Of a stretch of 64,000 nt of DNA, positions 36,927-58,329 are shown in pieces. Source of the DNA: a virus. The stretch lies in IMG/VR virus record IMGVR_UViG_3300045974_000102, positions 1 through 64,000 of that record; one strand, written 5' to 3'. The notes beneath the pieces are model-generated. The model had not been told where the DNA came from, did no database searches, and saw nothing but the letters and a program-made list of their open reading frames with translations. The position numbers were made by a program, and so were the translations under genes. Every line of letters starts with the position of its first letter. The first letter of the stretch is position 1.

Positions 36927-37300
36927 TATTGATCAAAGACCCCGCCTATATAGAAGTGATTAAGCGCATACATTTTTGGTGTTACTCCCATGTCATTAAC
37001 CTTTCCCATAATCTTAGCATTAAATCTTCCACCTGTATGCTGGACATATACTAGTTCACCAGCTTCATATTTATTGCCTGCCATATAGTCATGTTGTGAG
37101 CACGATATGATAGCCTCAACTGCTGGATTAAAAGTGCCTTCTCTTTCTAGCACAACAGTAAAAACACCATGACCATCATCTATACTTTTTATTATACCTC
37201 TACACTGCTGAGGAGTATTGGTTGTATCTGTTGTGCGATTAAGCATGTCAATGCCTAACTCACTTACATCATTAAATAATCCTGCTATATTACCAGACAT
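36926..37300 (-). CDS. Putative spike OB-fold protein (gp5/gpV N-terminal-like)
   Basis: RGIIKSIDD...YEAGELVYVQHTGG...KIMGKV resembles a spike OB-fold; follows the hub gene. Confidence 0.45.
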   Translation of the reverse strand: MSGNIAGLFNDVSELGIDMLNRTTDTTNTPQQCRGIIKSIDDGHGVFTVVLEREGTFNPAVEAIISCSQHDYMAGNKYEAGELVYVQHTGGRFNAKIMGKVNDMGVTPKMYALNHFYIGGVFDQ

Positions 37301-40300
37301 TATGCTTTCTCCTTACACCACTTAATTACAGCGTATCTCTTTTCTGCATAATTCTTCTCAACATCATAATTATGCTTTAGCTGCTTAGAGCTTTCGCCTT
37401 TAGGTATCGGATTGTTATCTGCATCAAAGCCTCTGCATTGCATACCATTATATCTCCAATAGCTTAGCTTATGGATAACCTCTCTCTTAGCCCAAGGATC
37501 TGTGCCTTTATATTCGCCCATATATCTTGTTTCTGCATCTATAGCTCTTTCTGCTATATGTTTTACACCAGCAAATATAACCCATTTTGCATACTTCACA
37601 TGATTATCACTTAAGTCTTCCCAGCTTCTTGGAAACGCAGGAGTCTTTGTTTTAATCCAATCTGCATCCTGAGCCATTTCACGAATAATCTTATCGACCC
37701 ACTCTTTACCATGAGAGCCATCTTGTCCAGCAGATAGTTGCATTAAGCCAATGTCGCTTGACTTAGCGTGTGCATTAAATGAACTTTCACACTCTATTGT
37801 TGTAGCTATCATTAATGGGTCTAGAAGTGGAGTTGTATTTTTATACTTATTAAAAGCTCCTAATACCCAACTGAACAATACTTCTGGTGTTGCTATATCT
37901 TGGTTCTTCTTGTTCATTTGCTCAAGCTTCCATTTAATATATTCAATCCCTTTACCTGGTGGCACAGCCTGTAGGTCAGCTAGTGATAGAGGTGTTCCAG
38001 GATATGCCTTTTTGAATTCTGATGGGCTCATGTCTGCCATAGCGCCTGGTAGTGGATTAACTACATTTCTATTTGGATTCTCAAGCTTAGATATTCCTGT
38101 CCAGTTGACTGAGGTGTAGTCACCTATCTGACGTAGTGTATTGTCAATTGTTTTCTTGTAGTCTGCTATAATTCCTTTACCAAACATGAATGCATCATTA
38201 TTTTTATAGCCTTCCATACCTTGCATTAGTAGTGAATTACGATACCATATAGGATGCACTATTATTGCATTATTCTTTGTGATAGACTTAATAGCCATGC
38301 TCTCAAACAACTGCGGTATCATCTCTATACAAGTAAGTAGTAAATATGCTATACCAGCTTTCATAGGAGCTGCATGGATGATTGTGCCAAATGGACTAAG
38401 GGCTAATCTTTCTCCAAAGCTTCTCTTCGCCATTGCAGTTATAGTTGCTCCAGCCTCAGCTTCTACAGCTGCGGCTACTGGTTTTGTGGTAAGCGCCTTA
38501 GCTAGGTCTGACATAAGATTTTTCTTCTTTAATAGATTACGCGCAACTGTTGATTCAGCCCCTGCTCCGAATGTTGCTTCTTCGAGAGCTTTCGCTATTT
38601 CTATTTCTGACATACCAAGTATTTCAGCACTTTCTTTCTTAAGTATCGTAGCTATCTGATCTATTAAACTCTTTCTGCTATGGGCTGCCCATTTCTCAGC
38701 GAGTGTAGTAGCAAAGCCTTTTACATTAGTTAGTATCTCTCTAGCCCTAAACTTAGCTCTTGCTGCGTTTCTGCTTAATACTCTTTGCTCAGCACTATAC
38801 ATCCTCTCTGACATTATAAATTCATCTGCACCTCTAAGCCAGTGCATTAGCCCGCCAAAGAAATAGCCAAACTCTCCAGCAGACACCATAGCATTAAAGC
38901 CCATTGCTTCTTTAGCTAACATAGGCACATATTCGTATTCACGTCTTTCCATAGCTGCAGTATCTGGATTTGCTTTTCTATTCTTTGCTTCATCACTACC
39001 TATGACCTGACTGATAAGAAATGCCCCACCTGCTATAAAGGCAAGTGCAGCTAATACCCAGACACCCATTGATCCTAGTGCGTATCCTCCTATTGCTTGT
39101 AGGACTCCTCCTACACCAATCGTGCCTATGTGTTCAAACATAATTCGTTTGAATACTTGTGCTGTGCTTAAATACGAGTCATGGTTGACTGAACATACTA
39201 GGTTAGGCACTATATGAGTTGTATAGCCCATCTCTGAGTCGAACTTATGTATAACAGTTTCTACTTCAACCCAGCCATACATCTTGTTTACTTTGTCAGC
39301 AATGTATATCTTATCATAAGGCTCTATTTTAGAATTGCCTCTAATAATAAGTGTGCCACCATATAATCTTTCAGCACCTTCTTTAAGTCTGCCAATAGCA
39401 TATTGATTAGCCACGTCTTCATTGTCTGTCCAGTTTATAGATTCGAACTTTTTAATTAGATATGTTGGATCTATATCTGCATCAATACAGAACTCAGTTA
39501 CCTTGTCTGAGTCTTCTACGTCCTTCTGGTTCTTAGCATACTGAACAGTTATATGATTCCACCCTCTGTCAGGTGTAGCCTTTATGCCATTGTGTATAAT
39601 ATCTTTAAATGACGATACCATATGGTGTTTCTGAAATGGAATAAATGGTGCTACTGCATTGAAGAATTTGGTGCCTTCAGCAAATTCACCATATCTATTA
39701 AGCTTTGGCCCTAAGTTCTTAATTGCTTCTCTAATGCCTTCAGCATACATATCTGTGCTTAGTAGTGACATTGAGGTTAAGGATGGAGCCATTGCTTGAA
39801 TAGGGTCATCTGTTCGGAAATAATTCCATTCTGCTGGACCTAAAAATAGAGTTGAGCGGTTTCCATAAGGTCTTACATCTAGTGCATAGTTAGGATAAAG
39901 GCGCTTAATGTTTTGTAACACATCCCATATAGTAGTCTTATTATTAATATTAAAGTTAACGCCATGCCATAACTTATTCCAAATGTCAGGAGCATAGATA
40001 TTGTCATCTATTGGATTGTTACCAGACTGGAATATCTTATAGAAGTGCTGTCCTATTTCAAGACTTGCCTTCTCATTATTATATAGGGCTCCAGCGAATG
40101 AGCATCCTATCTCACGGATACGTCCTGCAAGAACGCTTAGATAACCATGCTCACCTTGCTTGCCCCACCATTTATGCATAACTTCTTCTGTCCAGATGTC
40201 TGGCACATGTGTTAGTGGTTTATATAATGTTGCTATAGATGCACCTGCAGCAGTTAGAGCCATATATCTAAATAGTTGCTTAGGTCCGAGAAAGGCCGCT

Positions 40301-43300
40301 GTAGCTGAGATGCCTGCACCAGCACCAAATATAAGTCCTGACTTCCAGCTATCTTTAAACATTGCCATTACAGAGATATGACTGCGACCAAATCTTTCTA
40401 TGAAGCTTCCATATATCTGTCCGAAGTGTGCGACTTGTGGATTACTTCTTAATATCTTACTTATAATGTCTGCATAGTTATTGCCACTTATATTTTCTGC
40501 TCTTGATGATGGCGCAGAAATAAGTTCTCTTCCGTCACCATGAGCTTCTATCTCATAAATGTAAGTATCTTTGTTTCCACTTAACGATGTAATAGTGCCA
40601 ATAAATACTGTATCTAGCATTCTAGGATCTGTTGAATATCCAAGTCGAAGTGCTATTCTCATTCCAGTGCGCAAAGGAACTACAGATGCTCCATAAATAC
40701 CAGCTGAGCCGTCTGAGAAAATACGAGTGTCTTCTTCTGTGTCCTTGATATTCTGTGGTGAGTATGGGCTAGATCCTTCAAATACATTTCTAGATGTGAT
40801 CTGATTAGGTCTTATTTCTGTAGAAATATACTTAGGGTCTATAACAATCCTGCATCTTAATAAGTGAACAGGGTTGTTCTTATCTCTAATAACCATTAAG
40901 TCTTGGACGAGTCTAAAGTCATAATAGTCATCAAGTGAATAGTATTTATAATCAGAAGTATCTGATTTAATTACATAAAGCTTATATGTAGGGAATGCAT
41001 TCTCTAGGCCATCTGTAGGCATCATGCTTTTTAGGATGTTCTCAGCACTCTGATTAGCTGCTGACTTCATATCTGCATTAGTAACTTCACCACCAGTCCA
41101 TGGCTTATCATTACTCATACTATATGCGGCAGCTTGTTCAGTTAGGTTTGTTGTATCTTTTTTGTAGTAGTTATATATAGCCTTATCTACTGCATTAGTA
41201 GGCGTTGCAGAGGCATCAGATCCATAACCTGTAGAAGTAATCTGAGTTGCATCTATCATTGGTCTCCATGTGTTAGATTCAAACTCTGCTATGCTGCTCC
41301 CTTGGTAGCCTGGCATGCCATCTATCGTGTCTTTCCATAAGCCATTTAAATTACTTGGATCACTAGAGCCAGCTTTAGTAAATGTATTTATCCATACATC
41401 ACCTGATGGAGCCAGTGTGTCACTTGGAGAGAGCGTGAACTTAGTGCTATTGAAATCTCTAATCGGACCTTCGGCATTGAAAACATATTCTGAGACTGCA
41501 CCTATACTATCTGTGTAGCCCATAGAAGATAAATAGTATGCCGCTGGACATCTACTTAAAAGTCCAAGCTGTCCTTGGAGTTCCATTAGTGTTCCATATC
41601 TAGGCATTGGAGCGCCAAGCTTCGTGTTATCTTTTATAATTGGATGACAGTCAGATACTAGAGTTGAGCTTACAGGTCCTACTGTTCTGCCATCGGCTCT
41701 CTTAATAGCAATCCCTCTGCTATTTCCATCTGCTACATTTACAATATCGCCTTGCTCCTGCTTTTTATCATTATTATAAAGTCTGGCAGAGTAAGTAGAT
41801 GTAATAAATCCTTCTGCTTCTTTTCTAAGTGCATTCATCCTGCCATATGCACAGTCTGTAAGCATGCTTGTGCTAGTCAGACTTGTTGGTGGTCTATCTC
41901 TACCTTCTACTATAGATCTAGCCCATCCTGCCCATCCTATAGTTTTAGGATCCATCATAGCCTTGGTAAGTGATGATTCTTTTCTTTCATCGTCTCTAAC
42001 TACTTTGCCATCTTTGACATAATTAACATTCATATCTTTAAGTCTTGTTGGCATTGTGTTTGCTATAATAGGACTAAGTGGAGAGTCTTTATCTATAAGG
42101 TCTTTAAAGGTTGCACCTTCTTCGGCACTAAAGGATTCTCTTGCATAAACATTCTTCCATACTGTTGTGTTCATAGATGGAGAAACAAAGTCTACAACGT
42201 CTGTCTTAATTTTGTCAAGGAACTCATATAAGTTAGTTACTTTATAGTTAACATACCAATCGCCCATAGTGGCTGAGTCAAGCATAGATGCTGCTACAAA
42301 ATTATCAATCCATGGGAAATATCTATGGCCGCCCCATGGCTTAATTTTCATAAGTTCAGGTTCAAGGATTACTTCTCCTTCTGGAACTTCTTCTTCGGAT
42401 TGGTTTTCTACAGACTCGCCGTATGTTCCAGTGCCTTCAACTACGCCTCTTATTAGTAGAACATAAAGTGCTACCCAGCGCCTTACGCTGCTGTTAGTTG
42501 AGATGTCTCTTTCGCTCTTAATATCAACTTCTAGGATCCAGTTGCCGCTTACTCCATCTTCGCCTTCTGTTGCAAGATATTCTTTGCACTGGGTAGTCAT
42601 CTTACCATAATTACGCAAGATCGCGTGCTCTCTGTAGTCACCTTCGAAGTAAAAATATAGGGCTCTGCCATCATTTGCAAAAGCTTGTTTCTGGTTCCAT
42701 GTTTCTTCGAATGCATCTTTAAACAAAGCCATAAGTAATACTTTGGCATTCATTCTCTGTTCAGCAGTGGCGGTTTTATCAAGCATTGCTAACAGTTGGC
42801 CTTTAGTTATCGTGTTTAGGCCTGATGTTATATTCTTAGTAAAGTAACTTGATGAATATTCTGGTAGCTCAGCAAACTCCTCATCTGCAAAGCGAGACAT
42901 TTTATTTATTTGCCAATTCTCTAATGATTTAATTACGCCTACATTTGATTCTGGTAAAAGCAGTTTATCTTCATATATACCACCAGCTAAAGCTTCAGCA
43001 AAGGTTATGTTACCTCCACCCCACTCTGGATTTGTGCTTCTTATAAAGAACTTCCAATTATTAAATATCTTTGATTCGTTCCATCCGGCTTTACGACTTA
43101 CTACGTCAGTTACTAAAGCAAGGAGTTGGGCTATTTGCTTATATTTAGTTCTAGCTCTATTGTCTGTTACAGTGCTATAGAGCTGTGCTCTGCTATCTAT
43201 AAGGCCCATGATGCCAGTCTTTGGGTCGTCTGCTATAAGAAAGTAAGATGAAAGTATAGCCCTGGTAGCTTTCTTAAATACTGACAAGTCTGGTGGTATG

Positions 43301-45525
43301 CCATTGAATGAGTTCTTAGCCATCTTATCTAGAATATCATTCTCACCATCAGCTAATGAATTAGTCTTTTCTCTTTCAATAATTTTCCCAACTCTTGCCT
43401 TAACTGCTTCATCTGATTGGGCGATAGCTACTACTCTACTAAGCCCCCAATAGGAGTCTTGCTGAGCTGCTTTATTAATATAGCGAGCATTGTAAATATA
43501 AGACTCTTTTGTTAAAGAAAGATTTACATCACTTAAACCTGGGTGTCCATCAAGTGAGGTAATAATAGAACTCTGCAGTGTAAGAACTTCTGTCAAGCAT
43601 AGTTTGGTGACACCATTTGCTATTATGTATCTGCCATCATAAGTTCCATAGTTTGGACCTCTATCATATTCTGGTCTATAGGTCTTTAATACTTTACTAA
43701 TAGTTTCTGAGTTAGTTGTCTTGAAGTTAATATCTACGTTAGTTTCGCCTGGTCCAACATACTGAGCTGTTGGAATAGACATGCCAATGATAGGTATCCA
43801 TGCAAAGTTGTTTTGATATGTTACAGCAAGACTATGTGCTTCTTCTTCAATAGTCGAGTCTACAATTAAATTTAATCTTCTGGACATTTCTTCAGCTTGT
43901 CCATTGCTAGCTTCAACTGCCTGATGAAACTTCTCTCTATCTATTTTATGGATTAGTAGAGATGAGTCTTCTGCGAACCATACGCGGTCTGGGTCATTAA
44001 GAATTTCTTCAACGAATAAGTTGTATGGGTGTATCGCATCTTCTAGGACAAGTGTCTTAGGAATAGTTGCATCTTTTTCGTCTTTAATAGTTGTCTTTAG
44101 AGACAAGTCTTTTAACTGTGATATTGTTCTTGCATTCTTATCATACTTATAATATTCAAGTCTTTCAAATGTATCACCGTTGAAATATGAGTTATAATTA
44201 AATAGTGAGAACTGGAATGTTGCGCCTAGTGAGCCTGGGTGTCCATCTAATGTGTAGACAGTATAAGAGTCCATTGTAACAGGAATATAGTCTGTGCCAG
44301 CATATGGACTTAGTATTACATGTCCTTCTCCTATCAACTTTCCAACTAAGTCAACTGATCTAATAAGATTAAATGGACAGTATGTATACTGCACAATAAT
44401 TCTCTTTAGTTCATTGTTGATAGCCTCTTCTCCACTGAATATTACGTTCATCTTTATTGCAAGTCTATTCGTAGAGTTAGAAATTGGCTTAGACTCTCTG
44501 CCTAATATAGGGACGCTATATGTTGTGCGCATTTGAGCAATAGTCACGTGTGTAGGAGGAACCTTAAGCCACACGTCGCCTATCTTAATTATTTCAGTTT
44601 CACTATCACATTTAGATAAGATCTCTTGTCTTCTAAGATCATCCGTGCCATAGAGTTTATTAAAGTCTCTTCTGGCTGTATCTCTCATTGCAATAACAGA
44701 CTGATTCTGTGGAGTTGTAGGCAGAGCTGCTGCATTTGCTACATCTGGATTTAGCTTTAGGAATGCTGCAAATCTTTGATTTAGGTATTGTGGAGTAATA
44801 CTATTTACTGCATCTGCCCATGCTGGATCTTTTGATGGAAGCAATGGTATAGCTTTGCCTATATCAACAAGCATAACATTTAACTCTCCTCGTTGATCTG
44901 TAGCTATACCATAATCGTTTACGAATGGGAGACCTGTTATTGCTGTTTGATCTTCAAATGCTACCTGAGCAGGAGTTATGGCTCCAGTGCCAAGACTGTC
45001 AGTTCTTAGCTTCTGGATATCTAATACCATATTAGGATTTTTAAAACCTTCTTGTAAAGTTTCATGTAGAAGTATAGTGCCTTCTACAGCTTTACCAACT
45101 TCTGGAACAGCATTACCTTTTGCATCTACACCAGCAAGGTTGCTATTAGTGGTTATATGGGCAAGAGCAACTTGTTCGCTGCTGCCATCTGTATAAACAA
45201 GTTCAAGTTGAGTGGGTCCAGTTGCTTTAACAAAAGATACTATCTTGCCAGGCTCAACACCTTTTACTTGTTTGCTGTTAACCATTACAGTAGGATATGT
45301 ATTTATATCTCCAGAGCGATAAGCTTGATATGTTGGTGTGTCGACCTTATATGCAGCATGCTGAGCTATTGTTGCCATTGATGCTTTTAAATTTTGCGCA
45401 GTTGTCCCATTACCTGACCAAGCTGATGTTGAGAACTTCTTTTTATTTTCATCTAAAAGGTTGTAATTCCACACATTAGCTGCTACGGAACTTACACCAT
45501 CATACGAACTTTTTAAAATTGCCAT
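37300..45525 (-). CDS. Giant baseplate hub / tail lysin with C-terminal lytic transglycosylase
   Basis: Hub-like LRTGMRIALRLGY...VFIGTI and GTLIIRGNSKIEPYD; C-terminal IECESSFN...IGLMQL...RYNG (SLT motifs); internal hydrophobic segments. Confidence 0.75.
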   Translation of the reverse strand: MAILKSSYDGVSSVAANVWNYNLLDENKKKFSTSAWSGNGTTAQNLKASMATIAQHAAYKVDTPTYQAYRSGDINTYPTVMVNSKQVKGVEPGKIVSFVKATGPTQLELVYTDGSSEQVALAHITTNSNLAGVDAKGNAVPEVGKAVEGTILLHETLQEGFKNPNMVLDIQKLRTDSLGTGAITPAQVAFEDQTAITGLPFVNDYGIATDQRGELNVMLVDIGKAIPLLPSKDPAWADAVNSITPQYLNQRFAAFLKLNPDVANAAALPTTPQNQSVIAMRDTARRDFNKLYGTDDLRRQEILSKCDSETEIIKIGDVWLKVPPTHVTIAQMRTTYSVPILGRESKPISNSTNRLAIKMNVIFSGEEAINNELKRIIVQYTYCPFNLIRSVDLVGKLIGEGHVILSPYAGTDYIPVTMDSYTVYTLDGHPGSLGATFQFSLFNYNSYFNGDTFERLEYYKYDKNARTISQLKDLSLKTTIKDEKDATIPKTLVLEDAIHPYNLFVEEILNDPDRVWFAEDSSLLIHKIDREKFHQAVEASNGQAEEMSRRLNLIVDSTIEEEAHSLAVTYQNNFAWIPIIGMSIPTAQYVGPGETNVDINFKTTNSETISKVLKTYRPEYDRGPNYGTYDGRYIIANGVTKLCLTEVLTLQSSIITSLDGHPGLSDVNLSLTKESYIYNARYINKAAQQDSYWGLSRVVAIAQSDEAVKARVGKIIEREKTNSLADGENDILDKMAKNSFNGIPPDLSVFKKATRAILSSYFLIADDPKTGIMGLIDSRAQLYSTVTDNRARTKYKQIAQLLALVTDVVSRKAGWNESKIFNNWKFFIRSTNPEWGGGNITFAEALAGGIYEDKLLLPESNVGVIKSLENWQINKMSRFADEEFAELPEYSSSYFTKNITSGLNTITKGQLLAMLDKTATAEQRMNAKVLLMALFKDAFEETWNQKQAFANDGRALYFYFEGDYREHAILRNYGKMTTQCKEYLATEGEDGVSGNWILEVDIKSERDISTNSSVRRWVALYVLLIRGVVEGTGTYGESVENQSEEEVPEGEVILEPELMKIKPWGGHRYFPWIDNFVAASMLDSATMGDWYVNYKVTNLYEFLDKIKTDVVDFVSPSMNTTVWKNVYARESFSAEEGATFKDLIDKDSPLSPIIANTMPTRLKDMNVNYVKDGKVVRDDERKESSLTKAMMDPKTIGWAGWARSIVEGRDRPPTSLTSTSMLTDCAYGRMNALRKEAEGFITSTYSARLYNNDKKQEQGDIVNVADGNSRGIAIKRADGRTVGPVSSTLVSDCHPIIKDNTKLGAPMPRYGTLMELQGQLGLLSRCPAAYYLSSMGYTDSIGAVSEYVFNAEGPIRDFNSTKFTLSPSDTLAPSGDVWINTFTKAGSSDPSNLNGLWKDTIDGMPGYQGSSIAEFESNTWRPMIDATQITSTGYGSDASATPTNAVDKAIYNYYKKDTTNLTEQAAAYSMSNDKPWTGGEVTNADMKSAANQSAENILKSMMPTDGLENAFPTYKLYVIKSDTSDYKYYSLDDYYDFRLVQDLMVIRDKNNPVHLLRCRIVIDPKYISTEIRPNQITSRNVFEGSSPYSPQNIKDTEEDTRIFSDGSAGIYGASVVPLRTGMRIALRLGYSTDPRMLDTVFIGTITSLSGNKDTYIYEIEAHGDGRELISAPSSRAENISGNNYADIISKILRSNPQVAHFGQIYGSFIERFGRSHISVMAMFKDSWKSGLIFGAGAGISATAAFLGPKQLFRYMALTAAGASIATLYKPLTHVPDIWTEEVMHKWWGKQGEHGYLSVLAGRIREIGCSFAGALYNNEKASLEIGQHFYKIFQSGNNPIDDNIYAPDIWNKLWHGVNFNINNKTTIWDVLQNIKRLYPNYALDVRPYGNRSTLFLGPAEWNYFRTDDPIQAMAPSLTSMSLLSTDMYAEGIREAIKNLGPKLNRYGEFAEGTKFFNAVAPFIPFQKHHMVSSFKDIIHNGIKATPDRGWNHITVQYAKNQKDVEDSDKVTEFCIDADIDPTYLIKKFESINWTDNEDVANQYAIGRLKEGAERLYGGTLIIRGNSKIEPYDKIYIADKVNKMYGWVEVETVIHKFDSEMGYTTHIVPNLVCSVNHDSYLSTAQVFKRIMFEHIGTIGVGGVLQAIGGYALGSMGVWVLAALAFIAGGAFLISQVIGSDEAKNRKANPDTAAMERREYEYVPMLAKEAMGFNAMVSAGEFGYFFGGLMHWLRGADEFIMSERMYSAEQRVLSRNAARAKFRAREILTNVKGFATTLAEKWAAHSRKSLIDQIATILKKESAEILGMSEIEIAKALEEATFGAGAESTVARNLLKKKNLMSDLAKALTTKPVAAAVEAEAGATITAMAKRSFGERLALSPFGTIIHAAPMKAGIAYLLLTCIEMIPQLFESMAIKSITKNNAIIVHPIWYRNSLLMQGMEGYKNNDAFMFGKGIIADYKKTIDNTLRQIGDYTSVNWTGISKLENPNRNVVNPLPGAMADMSPSEFKKAYPGTPLSLADLQAVPPGKGIEYIKWKLEQMNKKNQDIATPEVLFSWVLGAFNKYKNTTPLLDPLMIATTIECESSFNAHAKSSDIGLMQLSAGQDGSHGKEWVDKIIREMAQDADWIKTKTPAFPRSWEDLSDNHVKYAKWVIFAGVKHIAERAIDAETRYMGEYKGTDPWAKREVIHKLSYWRYNGMQCRGFDADNNPIPKGESSKQLKHNYDVEKNYAEKRYAVIKWCKEKA

Positions 45526-45537
45526 TATAACCTCTTG

Positions 45538-50883: not shown

Positions 50884-50892
50884 AATATATCC

Positions 50893-53800
50893 TTAATATA
50901 AATACTGGAACTGTGATAGTAGAATACCACCATACTTATCGTATCTCTTTCTGACACGATGATCTTCTTCGTCTGTTGTCTCTTCTAAGTGCATCATAGC
51001 ATTAGGTGATGTTACTGGTGCGCCGTGTGATGATTGTATAACGTCATTCTGTGCTATATATGGCAGTATCTCTCCCGTCATGGTAGCACTTGTATTATGG
51101 ATAGAGTTTATGTCAATAGCTGATTGATAAGCTCCTGGGCTATAAACTGCTCTTACTAAGTGGTCATCGAAGAAGCCATAGTCTTCTATTTGTTCGCCCT
51201 GGTCTTTAAGTGCCAACACTTCTACTTTTTCAATGTCAACGTCAGGTGACCAGCCAAGCCAATCAGTCCCTGGAAGAGCATGACTATTAGAATACTGCTG
51301 AATAATCTTTGAGCGTGCCCAGTCGCCTCTTGTAATGCCAGTGCCATCAGTCTCGTGCATATACTGACGAATATCACTATCAGATAGATCGAAGGCTTCG
51401 TTTGCTTGTATCTCTGCAAATTCTTCTCTATCTCTTTCAGAACCTGCCTCTGCTAATCTCTTTGCCCATAGACCCTTATAAAGACGCTTAGATGCTTCTG
51501 GTAAGAACTTAAATATTTTGCCACGCTTCTCTGGACTGCTTTCATTTGCAAAGAAGTCAAAGTATGCTCTTTCGTTCTGTGGCAATGCTGTTAATTCATC
51601 ACGTAAGCTGTTATCTGTTGGATCTGCACCTATCATAGTAGAGCGCCACTTAGCATGGTAGAACTCTGCTTCTTGATAGTCGCCAGCGTCAGAAGATTGG
51701 TTAGCTAGCATCTTATATTTTAGATATTTGATTATATCCCAATACTGCTGCTTCTCTCTTCTTTCTGCTGTAAAGCTTGGTATAGTATCAATACCGAATA
51801 CGCGGTGTCCTATATTTGCTATCATAGGCTTTAATAGATGTTCGATAGGGTGCTGCCAAAGTCTTACTTCTTTACCAAATACTTGATAGTCTAAATAGTT
51901 AGTGAGATAGTCTCTATTAGGGATAAGTTTTCTATCCCAGAAGGTAGACTTATCTGTCATATTTTCCCAGTAGCCAGCGAGAAAAGTATTATAAGAGCCT
52001 ATCTTATCTTGCGCTAAGTTGTGCGAAGCTAGATTACCTGTATCTGCGAAAGGAGATCCTTCGTCCCACATATCTTCTTGCATGCCGCTCACATAAGCCT
52101 CAAGCCCTTTAGACATGTCTGGCATTGACTCTGGAGCAGCAACTTGCATATCTATTCTTTTGCCGGGCGATAGATGAGAAGCCATTGCGCTCATAGAAGA
52201 CTTCTGTATTTCTAAGGCGTCATTTGCTAATTGGCTTGTGTCATCATATCTAAACTTCTGAAGCAGTCTTGCTCTAATGTCCTGCACTCTATTGGATACG
52301 CCAGCCGCTCTATATGTAGTCTCATCTCCTTCAAGGCCAAACTCACCAGTTTCTAGGTCTGCCCAGTCTACTACACCTGAGCGATCTTCTGTCGCTATGC
52401 TCTGAGTATATTCTTGAGAATGTGCAAAGATCTGCTTCTTTAACTCACCAACTTGAGTTAATGTATCATAGTATCTCTGTTCTTCTGCAGGAGAAAGGTT
52501 GTTCCCTATTGCTAGCTGCAAAACGCTAGCTGATGTATTTCTAAATTCTGACGAGTATGGAGCTATCTGCTGTAAGATTTCAAGTCTAACTGGATCTGGA
52601 TACTCTTCTAAGTCCATTCCTTTAACTTCAGGAAACAAGAACTCCCAGCCTTTACGTGATGTCATTAACCAGCCCTGTGGAGCCTTATCAAATGTGGTGC
52701 CATGCGTATAGTCAATGCTTTGTTTGCTTCGCTCTGAGTTCCATATATCTTCTTCTCTTTGAGGTATCCAGTTAACACCAAATAGCTCATTTGGAAGATC
52801 GTTGATTGTCCACTTAGATCTCGGATTAGTAAACACACGACGTAAGAACTCGCCACCTATACCTGTAATATCTCCAGCTCTCCATCCCCACATGATCTGT
52901 GCTGGATCATACATTGCTGAAGCATCTGCTTTTCTTGGGACATAAGAATCAATACCCTTCTTCCCTGCAGCAAACTGATATAGAGAGCGGAACATGAAAC
53001 CTTTGAAACCAGAGTATTCAGTTCCTTGATCCCACATCTTAATCATATTCTGTCCGAATAGATTATCAGATCTCTTCATAGCCTCATAGAGCTGCGGTGT
53101 AGAGTCTATAGCAGAGTTGTTATGTTGAATATCTACAGCTAGCCTTAAGTTCTTAGCTACTGCTCTTTCATAGTATTGGTCGGCCTTATCATCTGGGATG
53201 CCTCCACCACCAAAGAAGTTAGGCTTTATGCCACGAGAGTCTAACTCATCAAATACTCTCTGCATTTCCGCAGATGGGTCATTGAAGTAGTTATCGGACC
53301 TTACGCGCAAGAAAGACCAGCCCTCTTGTTCAAGTTCCCTTTGTCTCTTAGCATCCTTAATCTTCTTCTTGCCACTATGGAAAGATACACCGTCAGCTTC
53401 AAGGGCAGCATATTTACTGCCATCTCTAATAACCATATCTATATAATAATTACCTTCATTTATCTGCGGGTAAACATCATAGCCCTGAGCCTTAAGTGAT
53501 TGATAAATCCCTCTTTCAAAAGGATTGCCTAATTCGCCTTCGCCTGGCTTATGGTATTCTTTCTGAGGTTTGATTACTCTACCTATTGTTGCAGCGATGA
53601 GTGGCCCGAGCAAAGGTATGTTCTGTCCATATTGGGATGATTTATATACCGGTTGTGATTCAGCGTGGTAGTCCTCTAGCATGTATCTATCGAATAGGCC
53701 GAACGTAAATGAGTTGAGTAGTCTATGTCCATAGCTCGGATAGATAACTCCCTTGTTTTGCCAGTCAGACTGTATAAGATTTAATGCCTCTCTTCTGTAT

Positions 53801-56800
53801 TGGATTACTTTGCCACCCTGATATGGCGTTGGCGATAAAATCCATCCTCTATTTTTTCTTACTTCAATATCTCTATTGCCATTAATAATAGCCTTACGTT
53901 CTTCATAAGTTTTATTAGAGCCTAAGAAGCCAGGTAGAAATGGGATCATAGGGGCCATTAAGAGGCCAAATGCTGCAGTCTTTGGGTTTTGTATTAGCCA
54001 ATTGAATGCTCTTTGAGAGCCAGTCTTAGTAACAGCGCCTACAAACTTCTCTGGCCTTAGAGCTTGTCTAAGCCATGGAGCAACTTGTATATTAGATTTA
54101 AGTAGATCTCTACCTACTTTATCAAAAGATCTTCTAATATAAGATGGGCCTGTCTTATATAAGTGTTGAGCAAATAAAACTGTAGTAGCTGCACTAATAG
54201 CTGGAGCTAAAACACCTAGACCTGTAGATCCTGGAGCAGCTTGCTCTTGACGCTTTGCCATCCTCGTTAAGCCAAGAATATCTGATATCTTAGAATATGC
54301 TAGCTGAGCTTTGTGATAAGCAGCTATAGGAAGCCCTGTAAGCGGTCCTGAGCCTTTATCAAACGTTAAGGCACCTAACATATGGTTTGCTAAATCAAAT
54401 GCCTTGTAGGCCGCATATGCTGGCAGAATACGCTTAATGCCAATGTCCATGAAGTAGCGAGGAATGCCACCCTTCATATCATATACAGGTAGGCCTAAGT
54501 GTGGCGCATTGATAAATTCAAGAGCACGACCAGCCATAGTGTAGATTGGGTTATGAGACTTAGTGAGCTTGTCTATTGTCTTGCCCATGAATTTGTTGTC
54601 AACAAATAGAACCTCGAATGGAGTTTCAAGGAACTGGTTCATAGGGTTAATAGTTATTTCTCTAAAAGCCTTGCCCCAGTGGCGAGCCATTTGATGGATG
54701 CCTTCTTTGCTCCATCTCTTTGCGCCACGGTAGCTCTGAACAAGAAGTGCTGTGTCTGCATCTCTTGTCATTTTGCCCATGTTCTTATAGAGTAAGTTAG
54801 TGCCGCCACCAATGCCTTTAGGTAGCATGTCAAGGTGCCATTTAACTGTCTCAATTGCTTTCCATATAGGTTGGAAAGTTGGGTTGCGTTTCATGAAGTC
54901 AGATTTTCTTGCTGTCTTTAAATACTCATCTAGTGGTATCTTATAGGATGCTCCTGATCTGACCAAAGATTCTTGAACTCTACCAAATACAATTGGGTTA
55001 ACTTGTCTAGTAAACTCTCCAGTTGCTCTATTAAAACTATTAACATTCTTGGCGCTAGCTGTTCTTAATTTAGATATATTAAGGTTTACATCAAGGACAA
55101 ACTTGCGTCCCATTCTATCACCATTAAGACTTTGATTTATAGCGTTAGATGCTTCGTCAAATTCTTGATACCATATTACTGCTGCACCATTAGGTTGTGT
55201 GCTTATCTTAATTATGTTCTTCTTAACCTTATCTGGTATTCTAGTAGGCTTAAGTATTTCAGATATTTCATCAAAGACTTCTGGGTTAGTATCTTGTATA
55301 GAGGCTAGTAGGTCATCAACAGCAATGCCATGATCATGTAAGCCTCTGATCCTCCCGCCGTTGATAGTAGAAAATCTTTTCCATTTACCACTAAGTTGTC
55401 CAGTTGCTTCATCAACATCACCTATAAATCTCTGTGACCCTCTACCCATATATTCGTGCATAGATGAAACGCGAAAGAGTCTGAATGTTGGCACAGCAGC
55501 TTCTATTTTTCTTGCGCCATAAAGCATAGTGCGGCCAAGCATTGTCATTGCTTCGCCAAGATTTGTTGGTATAACTTTAGACTTATGTGCCCCAAGTAAG
55601 TTTGGGTCATGTAACATTGCCGAGAAACCTACTGACCATAATGATAAGCCTGCTGTGAAGCCAAGTGCGCCAAGTCTGCCTACCATAGTAAGTGCACTAG
55701 CGCCGTCTGCTTCATTACCAGATGAATAAGTTTTATATTCATTAGATATACCAGTCTTGTTAAAGCTCATACTACTGCTTGAAAGCTTTTGTTTCTTATC
55801 TCCACCACCAAAATAAGTAGCTGCACCAAGTAATGCAAAGACACCAGCTAAGCTTGAATATTGAGCTATCTTAGTTGCAGCTCTATTGTGCTCCATGAAG
55901 TTCATGGCGTTGTGAAAAAATCCACCGCCTCCACCTCCTGCACCTCCACCTCCACCAAACATGGAAGGTGTAAAGCCACCTGACTTAGATGCATATATAG
56001 AAGAGAACCCTTTCTTTATACTGCTTGTTCTTTTGTCTATTAGACCTAGCATTTGTTGAGTAAGCTCTGAGACACTATAGCCTTGCTTCTGAGTTTCACG
56101 CTCCATAACATTTTGGAAAGCCTGATGTAAGAACTGGCCACCAATATCAGATCGTAATACCTTATCTATACCATGTTTTAATTCGTCTCCATGATTGCCT
56201 TTTGTGAGCGAGTTCTTAAACTCATCCATAACATCACCAAAGGCAGCTTTTAGTGCAACCTCAAGGCGTGTATCAGCACCAGCTACGTGTAATTCTTTTC
56301 CATTAAAAAATGGCTTAACTTTACTATGCCAGGAGAATAGATTTGCTACATCTTCAACCTTCCAAAATATAGCGTGTTGGAATTCTTCAAAAGTATTAGG
56401 CGCTCGCGCTATTCTGCCTGCAGTCTCTTTAAAGGCGATTGGGTTAATATTAATTGTTAACCGCTCCATGATATTTCTATCTTCTTTAGCAAGTCTGAAA
56501 GCTAATAGTTGCCAATCATGTTCAGCACCTATAAAATTAATTTTCCCTGCTTCATATAAACCTTTAAATCTTTCATAAGCTTTTTTATCTCGCTTAGCAA
56601 GCTGAACAAGCATTGCTGGAATATCGAAGTCTGTATTCCAGGTCATTATATTTTTAACCTTGCCAGCGGTAGCATCATTCATTAGATTATCTAAAACATT
56701 AAACAAGCCTTGCTTCTCTGCTTTATTATAAAAAGCTTCTTGTGTCATAGATTTCATTTCAATGTTGCCGTTCAATCCTTCAAGAAGGGCTTGAACCTGG

Positions 56801-57348
56801 GCATCTGTTTGATTAAATATACCAAGTGACATGTCTGATATATTTAAGTATTTATCACCTACAGGTATTACGTTGTTAGTTATTAGGGCTCTGTTAATCT
56901 CTCTGGGACCAAGCACTTCCATAGCATAGTGCACTTGTCTATCACTTAACCCCTTCCCTGCTATATCCTTTTTAGTTAGATAATTATAAAGGCCTTCATG
57001 TGTTTGCGTCTGTATTCTTGACTTTTTAACATTAGTGCGTTGGCCGCGTATCATCTTGAATTCTTCTACGTGGCCTTGACTGTGGACATTTAGATCTCTT
57101 ATTGAGTGAGGATTGGTTACTTGGATATGATGGATAGTGTCGCTTAAACCTGGTTCCATATAAGCCATTTGCAATAGCTCCATATGTCCATGTGAAAGCA
57201 AAATTTCATCTGCTGATGGCAATGCCCTTCTACCATCTTGCATCTTCGATAAATTATAGAAGAAGAAATTTAAATGATTAGTTTCGATATCTATAAACAT
57301 CGAGATGTCTTTTAGATATTTAGTGTAATCATTATTAGAAGCTGCCAT
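50893..57348 (-). CDS. Tape-measure-position giant protein with N-terminal DEDDh-like exonuclease and internal Vsr/DUF559-like endonuclease
   Basis: Follows two chaperones; motifs FIDIET, WNTDFD and HVAGAD; internal PFERGIYQSL...YYIDMVI...ALEADGVSFH...DAKRQRELEQEGWSFLRV; several TM-like segments. Confidence 0.7.
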   Translation of the reverse strand: MAASNNDYTKYLKDISMFIDIETNHLNFFFYNLSKMQDGRRALPSADEILLSHGHMELLQMAYMEPGLSDTIHHIQVTNPHSIRDLNVHSQGHVEEFKMIRGQRTNVKKSRIQTQTHEGLYNYLTKKDIAGKGLSDRQVHYAMEVLGPREINRALITNNVIPVGDKYLNISDMSLGIFNQTDAQVQALLEGLNGNIEMKSMTQEAFYNKAEKQGLFNVLDNLMNDATAGKVKNIMTWNTDFDIPAMLVQLAKRDKKAYERFKGLYEAGKINFIGAEHDWQLLAFRLAKEDRNIMERLTININPIAFKETAGRIARAPNTFEEFQHAIFWKVEDVANLFSWHSKVKPFFNGKELHVAGADTRLEVALKAAFGDVMDEFKNSLTKGNHGDELKHGIDKVLRSDIGGQFLHQAFQNVMERETQKQGYSVSELTQQMLGLIDKRTSSIKKGFSSIYASKSGGFTPSMFGGGGGAGGGGGGFFHNAMNFMEHNRAATKIAQYSSLAGVFALLGAATYFGGGDKKQKLSSSSMSFNKTGISNEYKTYSSGNEADGASALTMVGRLGALGFTAGLSLWSVGFSAMLHDPNLLGAHKSKVIPTNLGEAMTMLGRTMLYGARKIEAAVPTFRLFRVSSMHEYMGRGSQRFIGDVDEATGQLSGKWKRFSTINGGRIRGLHDHGIAVDDLLASIQDTNPEVFDEISEILKPTRIPDKVKKNIIKISTQPNGAAVIWYQEFDEASNAINQSLNGDRMGRKFVLDVNLNISKLRTASAKNVNSFNRATGEFTRQVNPIVFGRVQESLVRSGASYKIPLDEYLKTARKSDFMKRNPTFQPIWKAIETVKWHLDMLPKGIGGGTNLLYKNMGKMTRDADTALLVQSYRGAKRWSKEGIHQMARHWGKAFREITINPMNQFLETPFEVLFVDNKFMGKTIDKLTKSHNPIYTMAGRALEFINAPHLGLPVYDMKGGIPRYFMDIGIKRILPAYAAYKAFDLANHMLGALTFDKGSGPLTGLPIAAYHKAQLAYSKISDILGLTRMAKRQEQAAPGSTGLGVLAPAISAATTVLFAQHLYKTGPSYIRRSFDKVGRDLLKSNIQVAPWLRQALRPEKFVGAVTKTGSQRAFNWLIQNPKTAAFGLLMAPMIPFLPGFLGSNKTYEERKAIINGNRDIEVRKNRGWILSPTPYQGGKVIQYRREALNLIQSDWQNKGVIYPSYGHRLLNSFTFGLFDRYMLEDYHAESQPVYKSSQYGQNIPLLGPLIAATIGRVIKPQKEYHKPGEGELGNPFERGIYQSLKAQGYDVYPQINEGNYYIDMVIRDGSKYAALEADGVSFHSGKKKIKDAKRQRELEQEGWSFLRVRSDNYFNDPSAEMQRVFDELDSRGIKPNFFGGGGIPDDKADQYYERAVAKNLRLAVDIQHNNSAIDSTPQLYEAMKRSDNLFGQNMIKMWDQGTEYSGFKGFMFRSLYQFAAGKKGIDSYVPRKADASAMYDPAQIMWGWRAGDITGIGGEFLRRVFTNPRSKWTINDLPNELFGVNWIPQREEDIWNSERSKQSIDYTHGTTFDKAPQGWLMTSRKGWEFLFPEVKGMDLEEYPDPVRLEILQQIAPYSSEFRNTSASVLQLAIGNNLSPAEEQRYYDTLTQVGELKKQIFAHSQEYTQSIATEDRSGVVDWADLETGEFGLEGDETTYRAAGVSNRVQDIRARLLQKFRYDDTSQLANDALEIQKSSMSAMASHLSPGKRIDMQVAAPESMPDMSKGLEAYVSGMQEDMWDEGSPFADTGNLASHNLAQDKIGSYNTFLAGYWENMTDKSTFWDRKLIPNRDYLTNYLDYQVFGKEVRLWQHPIEHLLKPMIANIGHRVFGIDTIPSFTAERREKQQYWDIIKYLKYKMLANQSSDAGDYQEAEFYHAKWRSTMIGADPTDNSLRDELTALPQNERAYFDFFANESSPEKRGKIFKFLPEASKRLYKGLWAKRLAEAGSERDREEFAEIQANEAFDLSDSDIRQYMHETDGTGITRGDWARSKIIQQYSNSHALPGTDWLGWSPDVDIEKVEVLALKDQGEQIEDYGFFDDHLVRAVYSPGAYQSAIDINSIHNTSATMTGEILPYIAQNDVIQSSHGAPVTSPNAMMHLEETTDEEDHRVRKRYDKYGGILLSQFQYLY

Positions 57349-57910: not shown

Positions 57911-57921
57911 GAAAGCTCCAA

Positions 57922-58329
57922 TTATGTTTCTAAGATTAGTTCAAGAGCCTTGTTAGGATCTTTAAGGAAGTTGCTTACTGCTAGGATTTGATAGACCAGT
58001 GTGAGGACTAGTCCTGCTTCTAAGGACTGTATGAGCACAGCTTCTGGCTTTGGATGGATTAGTGAAGCTTTAAGGATAGCTTCATGTGTAGACATCTTAT
58101 CTAGGTTTGCTCTCCTGATATCAGCGAACTCTGCCCATGGTAGATATTTATACATAAAGAATTGTAGTTGATCTGCCGGACCTAAGAATGTGCAGTAGAC
58201 ACGCTTATTAAAAGCCTTAGCTCTTTCAAACTCAGGCTTGGTCATTTTGTAATAAGCAATTTTGTCCCAGTTAATTTCATCGTAAAGTGATTGTTTAACA
58301 TCTTTTACTTCTTCTAGCTCTTCACTCAT
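57922..58329 (-). CDS. Tail assembly chaperone candidate
   Basis: FMYKYLPWAEF...ILKASLIHP...LEAGLVLTLVYQILAVSNF; position between tube genes and the tape-measure-position gene; shares LEAG with the next gene. Confidence 0.6.
   Translation of the reverse strand: MSEELEEVKDVKQSLYDEINWDKIAYYKMTKPEFERAKAFNKRVYCTFLGPADQLQFFMYKYLPWAEFADIRRANLDKMSTHEAILKASLIHPKPEAVLIQSLEAGLVLTLVYQILAVSNFLKDPNKALELILET

What the first reader, a model, noticed from the sequence alone, without database searches (positions are those of the whole stretch)
37300..57348. Twenty-kb trio of giant tail proteins that may form an injected multi-enzyme payload
Seen: three consecutive giant ORFs sit where a tape measure and hub are expected. 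Together they show motifs for a DEDDh exonuclease, a Vsr/DUF559-like endonuclease, an RNA polymerase active site, degenerate SNase-like folds, a hub and a lytic transglycosylase, interspersed with membrane-like segments. Inference: the tail lumen/hub may act as a delivery system that breaches the wall, forms a channel, starts transcription and processes nucleic acids (host DNA attack, counter-defence or genome-end processing) before phage gene expression. I do not know of a characterised system with this combination.
Basis: partly seen in the sequence, partly recalled or inferred. Interest (0 to 1): 0.85.

Follow-up and report, generated by a model that had tools for sequence, protein, structure and literature searches.

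The report
Giant tail proteins carrying an RNA polymerase
A 116-kb contractile-tailed phage encodes, where the tape measure and baseplate hub genes normally sit, three giant proteins that carry a complete RNA polymerase, a proofreading-type exonuclease, an inserted endonuclease and a cell-wall-cutting hub, so its tail probably delivers enzymes as well as DNA.

Summary
Three back-to-back minus-strand ORFs of 2151, 1781 and 2741 aa lie between the sheath, tube and chaperone genes and the baseplate wedge. This matches gp145, gp146 (named tape measure) and gp147 (hub) of Bacillus phage 0305phi8-36 and gp035-037 of Acinetobacter phage ME3.

The middle protein is a single-chain two-barrel RNA polymerase. 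RxP, NADHDGD and three basic residues are invariant in 25 homologues that share about 20% identity. Its AlphaFold model matches RNA polymerase largest subunits only at the top of the lists (Foldseek E 3e-5, Z up to 9.6).

The first protein starts with a DEDDh exonuclease: all six catalytic residues are invariant in 9 relatives, and the fold reaches Z 10.7 to Pol III epsilon. It also carries an MTES_1575 nuclease (Pfam 3e-22), an insertion absent from five relatives.

The third protein is the gp27-type hub with a C-terminal lytic transglycosylase. Its N-terminus shows no SNase signal, although relatives carry a true SNase there.

Virion membership is inferred, not measured. Injection is untested. 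The closest precedent is the tape-measure-fused virion polymerase of Thermus phage P23-45; exchangeable hub domains were described in 2007. I rate this a new variant of a known kind. First-stage notes on this same genome had flagged the same stretch.

The parts
50893..57348 (-). Giant protein 1 (2151 aa), homologue of 0305phi8-36 gp145 and ME3 gp035
   Evidence: ORF. blastp to gp145 and gp035 over aa 1032-2060, E 1e-12 to 3e-15. gp145 is marked as a virion protein by mass spectrometry in its record.
56149..57312 (-). DEDDh 3'-5' exonuclease domain (aa 13-400) with large insertions
   Evidence: D20, E22, N238, D242, H354 and D359 are invariant in 9 relatives. Model pLDDT 77. All 50 best VIA matches are DEDD exonucleases; the best is Pol III epsilon at Z 10.7 with 169 of 174 residues aligned.
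55612..55869 (-). Gly-rich linker and hydrophobic Gly/Ala-rich segments (aa 494-579)
   Evidence: Kyte-Doolittle scan. The segments are aligned in relatives.
53920..54225 (-). Two conserved hydrophobic segments (aa 1042-1143)
   Evidence: Hydropathy peaks of 1.62 and 1.65, in a block with many invariant residues.
53242..53520 (-). MTES_1575 / DUF559 (Vsr-like PD-(D/E)xK) nuclease domain, aa 1277-1369, inside an insertion of about 130-180 aa (about aa 1268-1445)
   Evidence: Pfam PF18741 E 3e-22, 78.9 bits against a cut-off of 38.2; PF04480 at 20.6 bits. The region is a gap in all five aligned relatives, and Pfam found no family in the three relatives scanned. It resembles the C-terminal nuclease of the anti-phage proteins Hhe and ProA, E about 3e-11.
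45538..50883 (-). Giant protein 2 (1781 aa): single-chain two-barrel RNA polymerase in the tape-measure slot
   Evidence: ORF. No Pfam, PHROG, NCBIfam or PDB sequence hit. 43 representatives among 1.84 billion proteins, mostly 1650-1900 aa.
48724..49137 (-). Beta-strand-rich region with invariant K663, R672, K716 (aa 583-720): candidate beta-like barrel
   Evidence: Invariant columns. Strands in the model. The QDE-1, ZmRDR2 and P74 gp62 alignments start at model residues 42-77 and run to about 1058-1183, so they span both barrels.
45958..48021 (-). Beta-prime-like region (aa 955-1642), including the catalytic barrel
   Evidence: VIA alignments to RNA polymerase largest subunits cover model residues 371-1060. 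Isolated double-psi beta-barrel domains match model 510-750.
46966..46986 (-). NADHDGD metal-binding motif (aa 1300-1306)
   Evidence: D1302, D1304, G1305 and D1306 are invariant in 25 homologues; R1260 and P1262 are invariant 42 residues upstream. A profile aligns this segment to phiKZ gp55 and bacterial beta-prime.
50788..50844 (-). N-terminal hydrophobic helix of protein 2 (aa 14-32)
   Evidence: Hydropathy. A comparable helix is at the N-terminus of ME3 gp036.
45541..45867 (-). C-terminal hydrophobic helix (aa 1673-1691) and highly conserved C-terminal tail
   Evidence: Hydropathy. The consensus DPNDLPSVNNPSF...LLTD...PYKxDMxxY is conserved in the family. gp146 and ME3 gp036 also have a hydrophobic helix about 110 aa from the C-terminus.
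37300..45525 (-). Giant protein 3 (2741 aa): hyperplastic baseplate hub
   Evidence: ORF. Homology to gp147 and ME3 gp037.
44596..45525 (-). Variable N-terminal region (aa 1-310), the place where relatives carry an SNase domain
   Evidence: Relatives L005-L007 have Pfam SNase, E 7e-9 to 1e-4. This protein has none, no hit from the relatives' HMM and no Atlas hit.
39160..41016 (-). Hub-homology region (aa 1504-2122)
   Evidence: blastp to ME3 gp037 (1e-11 and 1e-15) and gp147 (8e-8 and 2e-9). PHROG 20474 at 3e-35 and PHROG 8809 at 5e-21. tblastn hits are annotated baseplate hub. gp147 was assigned to the T4 gp27 / P2 gpD family in PMC2147016.
39013..39144 (-). Strongest predicted membrane helix (aa 2128-2171)
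   Evidence: Hydropathy 2.27.
37426..37833 (-). C-terminal lytic transglycosylase (SLT) domain (about aa 2565-2700)
   Evidence: Pfam SLT E 0.025, below the cut-off. The ES...GLMQ motif aligns to the SLT of L003 (pairwise E 5e-5), which itself scores 3.5e-20.
57335..58329 (-). Two small ORFs (191 and 135 aa) at the position of the two-gene tail chaperone
   Evidence: By position only, against 0305phi8-36 gp143 and gp144. There are no family hits, and no paralogy between the two was detected.

Best explanation
The three ORFs are the tail-lumen and baseplate-hub proteins of a 0305phi8-36-like myovirus. Each has a conserved structural core to which enzyme domains have been added.

- Protein 3 is the gp27-type hub. 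It carries a lytic transglycosylase that cuts peptidoglycan when the sheath contracts.
- Protein 2 sits in the tape-measure slot, between an N-terminal and a C-terminal hydrophobic helix. It contains a complete, probably active single-chain two-barrel RNA polymerase that is closer in fold to beta-prime of multisubunit enzymes than to the YonO/QDE-1 group.
- Protein 1 carries a DEDDh 3'-5' exonuclease. In this phage only, it also carries an inserted Vsr-like endonuclease.

The most likely mechanism is as follows. Proteins 1 and 2 are expelled ahead of the DNA. Their hydrophobic segments insert into the membrane. The polymerase then transcribes the first genes to enter without needing the host enzyme, probably including the RdRP-family polymerase gene at genome position 104979-108044. 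The nucleases act on host or incoming nucleic acid.

Shown here: domain identities, conservation of catalytic residues, gene order, and conservation of the cassette. Inferred: packaging in the virion, ejection, catalytic activity and substrates.
For: - Gene order matches 0305phi8-36 and ME3.
- The cassette, with sizes of about 1950 / 1750 / 2450-2620 aa, is complete in five uncultured viral contigs; partial copies turn up in four further loci.
- Polymerase: R1260, P1262, D1302, D1304, G1305, D1306, K663, R672 and K716 are invariant in 25 homologues. The model has pLDDT 73 and pTM 0.72. All 50 listed Foldseek PDB hits are RNA polymerase beta-prime-type chains, E from 3e-5. In the search without Foldseek, the top 13 are RNA polymerase largest subunits or QDE-1, Z 7.7-9.0. 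The second look gives Z up to 9.6.
- Among viral models, the second-best match is an 802-residue piece of an ME3 protein, most likely gp036 (E 6.7e-6). gp036 has SREP...GGDHDQD at the same spacing as this protein's TRYP...NADHDGD, and the same terminal helices.
- Exonuclease.
- Endonuclease.
- Hub and SLT.
- gp145 and gp146 are virion proteins by mass spectrometry according to their record.
- Candidate second polymerase: GDEDGD and RNP motifs; its nearest Atlas clusters are phage PF05183 RdRP proteins, score 0.96.
- Precedent for a tape-measure-fused virion polymerase that transcribes a non-virion polymerase gene: PMC10770324.
Against: - No proteomic, expression or activity data exist for this phage.
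- The middle protein has no significant sequence similarity to gp146 or ME3 gp036, and gp146 has no DxDxD motif. Its virion status therefore rests on position and topology.
- A folded polymerase of over 100 kDa cannot sit folded inside a tail tube. How it would be stored is unknown, as it is for P23-45.
- Fold Z-scores of 9-10 on a 1199-residue model are moderate.
- Which of the three proteins measures tail length is unresolved.
- The first 582 residues of protein 2, and most of proteins 1 and 3, were not folded.
Confidence: 0.6

Rival explanations
1. The enzymes work in the producing cell, not in the next host. The genes lie in the late tail operon, but the polymerase and nucleases act late in infection, for example in late transcription or host DNA breakdown. 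They are not packaged, or only their structural parts are packaged after proteolytic removal of the enzyme domains.
For: No virion data exist for this phage. The polymerase family has no sequence link to the mass-spectrometry-verified gp146. Large globular domains are hard to fit in a tail lumen.
Against: The enzyme domains are in the same polypeptides as conserved structural cores and terminal hydrophobic helices. The cassette order is fixed in all relatives. A separate RdRP-family polymerase candidate already exists for intracellular transcription. P23-45 shows that such a fusion can be virion-borne (PMC10770324).
Confidence: 0.15
2. Protein 2 is a structural tape measure whose polymerase fold is a catalytically dead relic, kept for length or for lumen filling.
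For: The positional counterpart gp146 in 0305phi8-36 lacks any DxDxD motif and was assigned as the tape measure from tail length (PMC2147016). Family members are narrowly distributed in length, mostly 1650-1900 aa.
Against: The Asp triad, the RxP motif and three basic residues are invariant across 25 sequences that share only about 20% identity. That pattern is the signature of selection on catalysis. ME3 gp036 also keeps DHDQD.
Confidence: 0.1
3. The proteins are virion-borne and ejected, but they are carried in the capsid, like the internal or ejection proteins of T7, N4 or phiKZ, rather than in the tail lumen. The nucleases serve mainly as counter-defence and not for host DNA degradation.
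For: All well-studied virion polymerases except that of P23-45 are carried in the head (own knowledge; N4, phiKZ and crAss-like phages are discussed in PMC10770324 and PMC7824862). The inserted nuclease resembles nucleases of the anti-phage proteins Hhe and ProA.
Against: The genes lie between the tail chaperone position and the hub, not in the head module. Protein 3 is the hub itself.
Confidence: 0.1

Closest known systems
Thermus phage P23-45 gp96, a tape-measure protein whose N-terminal part is a two-barrel virion RNA polymerase (PMC10770324)
   Same: A two-barrel polymerase with a DxDGD motif is encoded at the tape-measure locus. It shares a polypeptide with membrane segments. The genome also holds a second, non-virion two-barrel polymerase candidate.
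   Different: P23-45 is a siphovirus and this phage has a contractile tail. gp96 is one 5002-aa protein that includes the ruler and a metallopeptidase; here the polymerase protein is 1781 aa and stands between two other giant proteins. gp96 is described as flat and without a clamp. This model aligns best to beta-prime of multisubunit enzymes, starting near their N-terminus. gp96 did not appear in the fold lists, so no closer relation is shown.
Bacillus phage 0305phi8-36 gp145, gp146 and gp147, and the BtI1 prophage-like element (PMC2147016)
   Same: The gene order is the same. gp145 and gp147 are sequence homologues of proteins 1 and 3. The hub is 'hyperplastic' with exchangeable N- and C-terminal enzyme domains, and the BtI1 hub carries a staphylococcal nuclease. 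A YonO/RdRP-type non-virion polymerase (orf99) is also present.
   Different: gp146 has no DxDxD motif and no detectable similarity to protein 2. gp145 lacks the DEDDh domain. The genome is 219 kb against 116 kb here.
Acinetobacter phage vB_AbaM_ME3 gp035, gp036 and gp037
   Same: The three-gene cassette is the same. gp036 most likely matches the polymerase model at fold level (E 6.7e-6). It has RxP...DHDQD at the same spacing and the same terminal helices. The gp037 hub carries SNase and M23 domains.
   Different: There is no significant sequence similarity to protein 2. gp035 has no DEDDh domain. gp036 is annotated as hypothetical and, in the papers I could search, has not been described as a polymerase.
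Virion RNA polymerases of crAss-like phages (gp66 of phi14:2), phiKZ-like jumbo phages and N4
   Same: These are phage-encoded polymerases delivered with the DNA to start transcription. The crAss-like and phiKZ-like enzymes are two-barrel enzymes.
   Different: Those enzymes are carried in the capsid of podoviruses or jumbo phages (own knowledge). N4's enzyme is T7-like, and phiKZ's is multisubunit. Here one chain holds both barrels and is encoded in the tail module.

Membership tests
Two-barrel (double-psi beta-barrel) RNA polymerase superfamily | DxDGD metal-binding loop in the beta-prime-type barrel, preceded by RxP | tested here: met
   NADHDGD at aa 1300-1306 and R1260/P1262 are invariant in 25 homologues. 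A profile aligns this stretch to phiKZ gp55 and bacterial beta-prime, weakly (E 0.09 and 1.2).
Two-barrel (double-psi beta-barrel) RNA polymerase superfamily | Second barrel that supplies conserved basic residues | tested here: inconclusive
   K663, R672 and K716 are invariant in a beta-rich region. The QDE-1, RDR2 and P74 gp62 alignments span from there to the catalytic barrel. This barrel was not folded and searched on its own.
Two-barrel (double-psi beta-barrel) RNA polymerase superfamily | Overall fold similar to the RNA polymerase largest subunit | tested here: met
   All 50 listed Foldseek PDB hits are beta-prime-type chains, E from 3e-5. VIA gives Z 7.7-9.0 for the top 13 and up to 9.6 in the second look, with 180-430 residues aligned.
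Two-barrel (double-psi beta-barrel) RNA polymerase superfamily | Template-dependent RNA synthesis | not testable with these tools
   Needs biochemistry.
Tape-measure-fused virion RNA polymerase (P23-45 gp96 type) | The polymerase and the length-determining tape measure are in one polypeptide, present in the virion | tested here: inconclusive
   The gene occupies the slot of gp146, the assigned tape measure, and shares its terminal helices. Ruler function and virion presence are not shown. aa 583-1670 model as a globular enzyme.
DEDDh (DnaQ-like) 3'-5' exonucleases | ExoI DxE, ExoII NxxxD and ExoIII HxxxxD, in that order | tested here: met
   D20/E22, N238/D242 and H354/D359 are invariant in 9 relatives.
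DEDDh (DnaQ-like) 3'-5' exonucleases | RNase H-like exonuclease fold | tested here: met
   All 50 best VIA hits are DEDD exonucleases. Pol III epsilon scores Z 10.7, rmsd 3.2, 169 of 174 residues aligned. Foldseek alone is weak (E 0.02, family-B polymerase exonuclease domains). No Pfam model matched.
MTES_1575 / DUF559 (Vsr-like PD-(D/E)xK nucleases) | Match to the family model above the curated threshold | tested here: met
   PF18741 scores 78.9 bits against a cut-off of 38.2 and covers 96 of 96 profile positions. PF04480 scores 20.6 against 20.6. The Asp, Glu, Asp and His in IDMV...LEADG..H are visible in the sequence; that these are the catalytic positions is from my own knowledge of the family.
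T4 gp27 / P2 gpD baseplate hub | Homology to hub domains 1 and 3 | tested here: inconclusive
   Homology to gp147 and ME3 gp037 is significant. gp147 was assigned to the gp27/gpD family by profile comparison in PMC2147016. No direct match to a gp27 or gpD model was obtained here.
Lytic transglycosylase SLT (GH23) | Family model match and the catalytic Glu-Ser plus GLMQ motifs | tested here: inconclusive
   Pfam gives 14.6 bits, below the 21.3 cut-off. ECES and GLMQ are present and align to a relative's SLT, which scores 3.5e-20.
Staphylococcal nuclease (SNase) fold in protein 3 | Family model match and the catalytic Asp, Arg and Glu residues | tested here: not met
   No Pfam hit in aa 1-300, while relatives score 7e-9 to 1e-4. 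The relatives' HMM finds nothing, though it also held an unrelated sequence by mistake. In the alignment the DGDT, R..G.DT.E and YGR positions are not kept. The fold itself was not predicted.

The most novel reading that the evidence does not exclude
A clade of 0305phi8-36-like myoviruses has turned the tape-measure-slot protein into a beta-prime-like single-chain RNA polymerase that is shot through a contractile tail. It travels with a DnaQ-type exonuclease on the neighbouring lumen protein. Together with a second, RdRP-family polymerase encoded in the early region, this would make infection independent of host RNA polymerase from the first second. If so, it would be the first virion polymerase delivered by a contractile tail. 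ME3 gp036 would be a second, cultured example. The exonuclease would be a new kind of injected tail cargo.
Probability: 0.45. Interest if true: 0.8.

Novelty: new variant of a known kind. Interest (0 to 1): 0.72.

Why it matters
Virion RNA polymerases explain how some phages start transcription without the host enzyme and escape host control. Only one case is known where such an enzyme is part of a tail tape measure: P23-45, a siphovirus.

This cassette would extend the idea to contractile tails. It defines an undescribed polymerase family: it has no Pfam, PHROG or NCBIfam model, and only 43 representatives among 1.84 billion proteins. Fold similarity links it to the cultured Acinetobacter phage ME3, where the idea could be tested at the bench.

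It also shows that the giant lumen and hub proteins of this old lineage act as scaffolds on which nucleic-acid enzymes are swapped. The DEDDh exonuclease, the Vsr-like nuclease, SNase, SLT and M23 domains all come and go between relatives. That raises a concrete question: what do injected nucleases do in the first moments of infection?

Tried and rejected
Searches that found nothing:
- tblastn of protein 2 against 50,697 phage records gave no match. ME3 gp036 likewise matched only itself.
- phmmer of proteins 2 and 1 against PDB sequences gave nothing. Protein 3 gave only chance-level hits.
- The search for homologous proteins timed out for protein 2 and returned only the query for protein 1 aa 1-470.
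- The profile of the polymerase family against gp146, ME3 gp036 and the 1021-aa ORF gave no significant score. For the 1021-aa ORF, however, the alignment fell exactly on RxP...DxDGD.
- The SNase HMM from relatives and the Atlas search on protein 3 aa 1-310 found nothing. That HMM by mistake included one unrelated sequence from L018.
- The scan of prokaryote genome contigs found no relative of protein 1, so there is no host clue and no prophage copy.
- P23-45 gp96 did not appear in the fold lists. No conclusion is drawn from that.
- The two small upstream ORFs show no detectable paralogy of the kind reported for gp143 and gp144.
- A k-mer search for an early promoter motif in intergenic regions gave only one motif, which lies upstream of minus-strand genes. 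It is listed under Noticed in passing.
- Papers: no description of this polymerase family or of ME3 gp036 as a polymerase was found.

No environmental or expression data could therefore be obtained.

Full report
**What is there.** The window is the first 64 kb of a single 115,882-bp contig with 39.6% G+C and no terminal repeat. Three ORFs lie on the minus strand: 50893-57348 (2151 aa, protein 1), 45538-50883 (1781 aa, protein 2) and 37300-45525 (2741 aa, protein 3). They are separated by only 9 and 12 nt, and the ORF upstream overlaps the start of protein 1.

Upstream lie a tail sheath (PHROG 16991), two paralogous tube proteins, a 521-aa protein and two small ORFs. The tube proteins match a PHROG that is misnamed 'major head protein'; the 0305phi8-36 record labels the same family as tail tube. 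Downstream lie three small ORFs and a gpJ-type baseplate wedge (PHROG 6, 2.7e-23), followed by fibre-like proteins.

**Relatives and synteny.** tblastn of proteins 1 and 3 finds jumbo myoviruses of the 0305phi8-36 lineage: Bacillus phages 0305phi8-36, WH1, Edson and KLEB27-3, a Moorella phage, and Acinetobacter phage ME3.
- In 0305phi8-36 the order is sheath, tube, tube paralogue, structural protein, two 'tail chaperonins', gp145 (1930 aa), gp146 (2537 aa, 'hypothetical tape measure'), gp147 (1903 aa, hub/endolysin), a gpV-like protein, two small proteins, and a gpJ-like protein.
- ME3 has the same order, with gp035 (1263 aa), gp036 (1603 aa) and gp037 (2329 aa).
- Protein 1 matches gp145 and gp035 (E 1e-12 to 3e-15). 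Protein 3 matches gp147 and gp037 (E 2e-9 to 1e-15). Protein 2 matches neither middle protein, nor does a profile of its family.
- The 0305phi8-36 record marks gp145 and gp146 as virion proteins by mass spectrometry.
- Hardies et al. assigned gp147 to the T4 gp27 / P2 gpD hub family. They described it as hyperplastic, with exchangeable N- and C-terminal enzyme domains, and noted that the BtI1 homologue carries a staphylococcal nuclease (PMC2147016).

**The cassette is conserved.** A full HMMER scan of 1.84 billion representatives with protein 2 aa 583-1781 found only 43 proteins, most of them 1650-1900 aa long. Five uncultured viral contigs hold a homologue, and all show the same three-gene order with sizes of 1948-1992, 1659-1829 and 2452-2623 aa. 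A few further metagenome pieces agree. No copy was found in 185,579 prokaryote species genomes.

**Protein 2 is a two-barrel RNA polymerase.** It has no Pfam, PHROG, NCBIfam or PDB sequence hit.
- Conservation: in an alignment of 25 full-length homologues at about 20% identity, the invariant residues include R1260, P1262, D1302, D1304, G1305 and D1306 (TRYP...42 residues...NADHDGD), and K663, R672 and K716 further upstream. The best PDB match of the family profile, though weak (E 0.09), is phiKZ gp55 beta-prime, aligned exactly over RxP...NADFDGD.
- Model: an AlphaFold model of aa 583-1781 built on 37 sequences has pLDDT 73 and pTM 0.72.
- Foldseek against the PDB: all 50 listed hits are beta-prime-type chains, led by the phage AR9 non-virion enzyme (E 3.4e-5, probability 1.0).
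- Search without Foldseek: the 13 best of 48,161 chains are largest subunits of ASFV, mycobacterial, Pol I, II, III and IV, vaccinia, archaeal, plastid, AR9 and phiKZ polymerases, plus QDE-1 (Z 7.7-9.0, 180-400 residues aligned). P74 gp62, the P23-45-type non-virion enzyme, scores Z 7.2. Isolated double-psi barrels match model residues 510-750, which include the Asp triad.
- Second look: Z reaches 9.6, with alignments running from the N-terminus of beta-prime to beyond residue 1350.
- The alignments to single-chain enzymes (QDE-1, RDR2, P74 gp62) begin in the upstream beta-rich region that holds the invariant Lys and Arg. This fits two barrels in one chain. That barrel was not tested on its own.

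I conclude that protein 2 is a polymerase of this superfamily, closer in shape to beta-prime than to YonO/QDE-1. The conservation pattern argues that it is catalytically active.

**Link to cultured phages.** Among predicted viral structures, the second-best match (E 6.7e-6, TM 0.40 on the target) is an 802-residue piece of an uncharacterised ME3 protein. The size fits half of gp036 (1603 aa). gp036 has SREP...43 residues...GGDHDQD, an N-terminal Gly/Ala-rich hydrophobic stretch, and a hydrophobic helix about 110 residues from the C-terminus, just like protein 2. gp146 has the C-terminal helix but no DxDxD motif. Other matches are a Microcystis phage MaMV-DC protein and a 'minor tail protein' of an uncultured siphovirus. 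Polymerase-like proteins in tail modules may therefore be wider spread than this clade.

**Protein 1.**
- The N-terminus carries DxE (D20, E22), NxxxD (N238, D242) and HxxxxD (H354, D359), invariant in nine relatives.
- The model of aa 1-470 (pLDDT 77, pTM 0.81) matches only DEDD exonucleases among its 50 best hits. These include Pol III epsilon (Z 10.7, rmsd 3.2, 169 of 174 residues), DinG, exonuclease I, RNase T, TREX1, Cap18 and family-B polymerase proofreading domains. Foldseek alone was weak.
- This domain is absent from gp145 and ME3 gp035.
- At aa 1277-1369 there is an MTES_1575 / DUF559 nuclease (Pfam 3e-22), similar to the nuclease end of the anti-phage proteins Hhe and ProA. It lies in an insertion that is a gap in all five aligned relatives.
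- Hydrophobic Gly/Ala-rich segments lie at aa 494-579 and 1042-1143.

**Protein 3.**
- aa 1504-2122 hold the hub homology.
- A strong membrane helix lies at aa 2153-2171.
- The C-terminus has ECES...GLMQ. Pfam SLT is sub-threshold (0.025), but the segment aligns to a relative's SLT that scores 3.5e-20. Relatives L005-L007 lack this C-terminal block: they have no residues there in the alignment, and L005 gave no Pfam hit.
- At the N-terminus, three of four relatives tested carry a Pfam SNase (E 7e-9 to 1e-4), and ME3 gp037 has SNase plus M23. This phage's N-terminus shows no SNase signal and does not keep the catalytic positions.

The broader point, that enzyme domains are swapped between relatives, is well supported.

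**A second polymerase.** Outside the window, a 1021-aa plus-strand ORF (genome 104979-108044) has RNP...GDEDGD. Its nearest Atlas clusters are phage proteins of Pfam RdRP PF05183 (score 0.96; 24 of 30 hits). That is the family of 0305phi8-36 orf99 (PMC2147016). It lies in a plus-strand block that diverges from the long minus-strand structural block at about 102 kb. This mirrors P23-45, where the tape-measure-fused virion enzyme transcribes the gene of a non-virion polymerase (PMC10770324).

**Mechanism and its limits.** The best reading is a tail-delivered enzyme set. The hub cuts the wall. The two lumen proteins leave first and anchor in the membrane. The polymerase starts transcription, and the nucleases act on nucleic acid. 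Only domain identity, conservation and gene order are shown. Packaging, ejection, activity and substrates are inferred. It is also unclear how such large domains would be stored, and which protein measures the tail.

**Novelty.** The kind is known: P23-45 for the tape-measure-fused polymerase, and exchangeable hub domains since 2007. The family itself, its setting in a contractile tail, its beta-prime-like build and the conserved DnaQ-type exonuclease next to it were not found in the papers I could search. First-stage notes on this same genome had flagged the same stretch and the same motifs. They are not independent evidence.

Noticed in passing
genome G000 104979-108044 (+), outside the window; locus L010:4979-8041: A 1021-aa ORF with RNP...GDEDGD motifs. 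Its nearest Atlas clusters are phage RdRP-family (PF05183) proteins, score 0.96. It is a candidate non-virion two-barrel RNA polymerase like 0305phi8-36 orf99. It has no Pfam, PHROG, PDB-sequence or phage tblastn hit.
   Followed up: partly
window 7718 and 4149; genome 80198, 82855, 84848, 98677: A recurring motif reads GTTAATAACA-NN-TATAAATA on the minus strand. It lies in four intergenic regions, three of them upstream of minus-strand genes, and inside two ORFs. It resembles a T4-type late promoter box (own knowledge) and was found by a k-mer count only.
   Followed up: partly
window 59930-61993 (-): Two paralogous proteins (443 and 214 aa) match PHROG 9206, named 'major head protein'. The family name appears to be a propagated misannotation.
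   Followed up: partly
L001 (Acinetobacter phage ME3) 18000-24986: The ME3 gp037 hub protein carries Pfam SNase (4.7e-14) and Peptidase_M23 (4.5e-22) in its middle. A nuclease on the hub therefore recurs across this lineage (BtI1, ME3 and the uncultured relatives).
   Followed up: partly
genome G000 74367-76145 (-), locus L008:10367-12145: A 592-aa protein with collagen triple-helix repeats (Pfam 2.6e-49) lies in the structural block. It is probably a fibre.
   Followed up: no
window 1906-4143 (+): A ribonucleotide reductase large subunit (PHROG 84, 6e-143) lies in the plus-strand block. That block would be continuous with the 102-116 kb block if the genome is circularly permuted.
   Followed up: no
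window 13699-18534 and 8285-12040 (-): Two further very large proteins (1611 and 1251 aa) have tail-fibre or central-fibre PHROG matches. The structural module is unusually rich in giant proteins.
   Followed up: no
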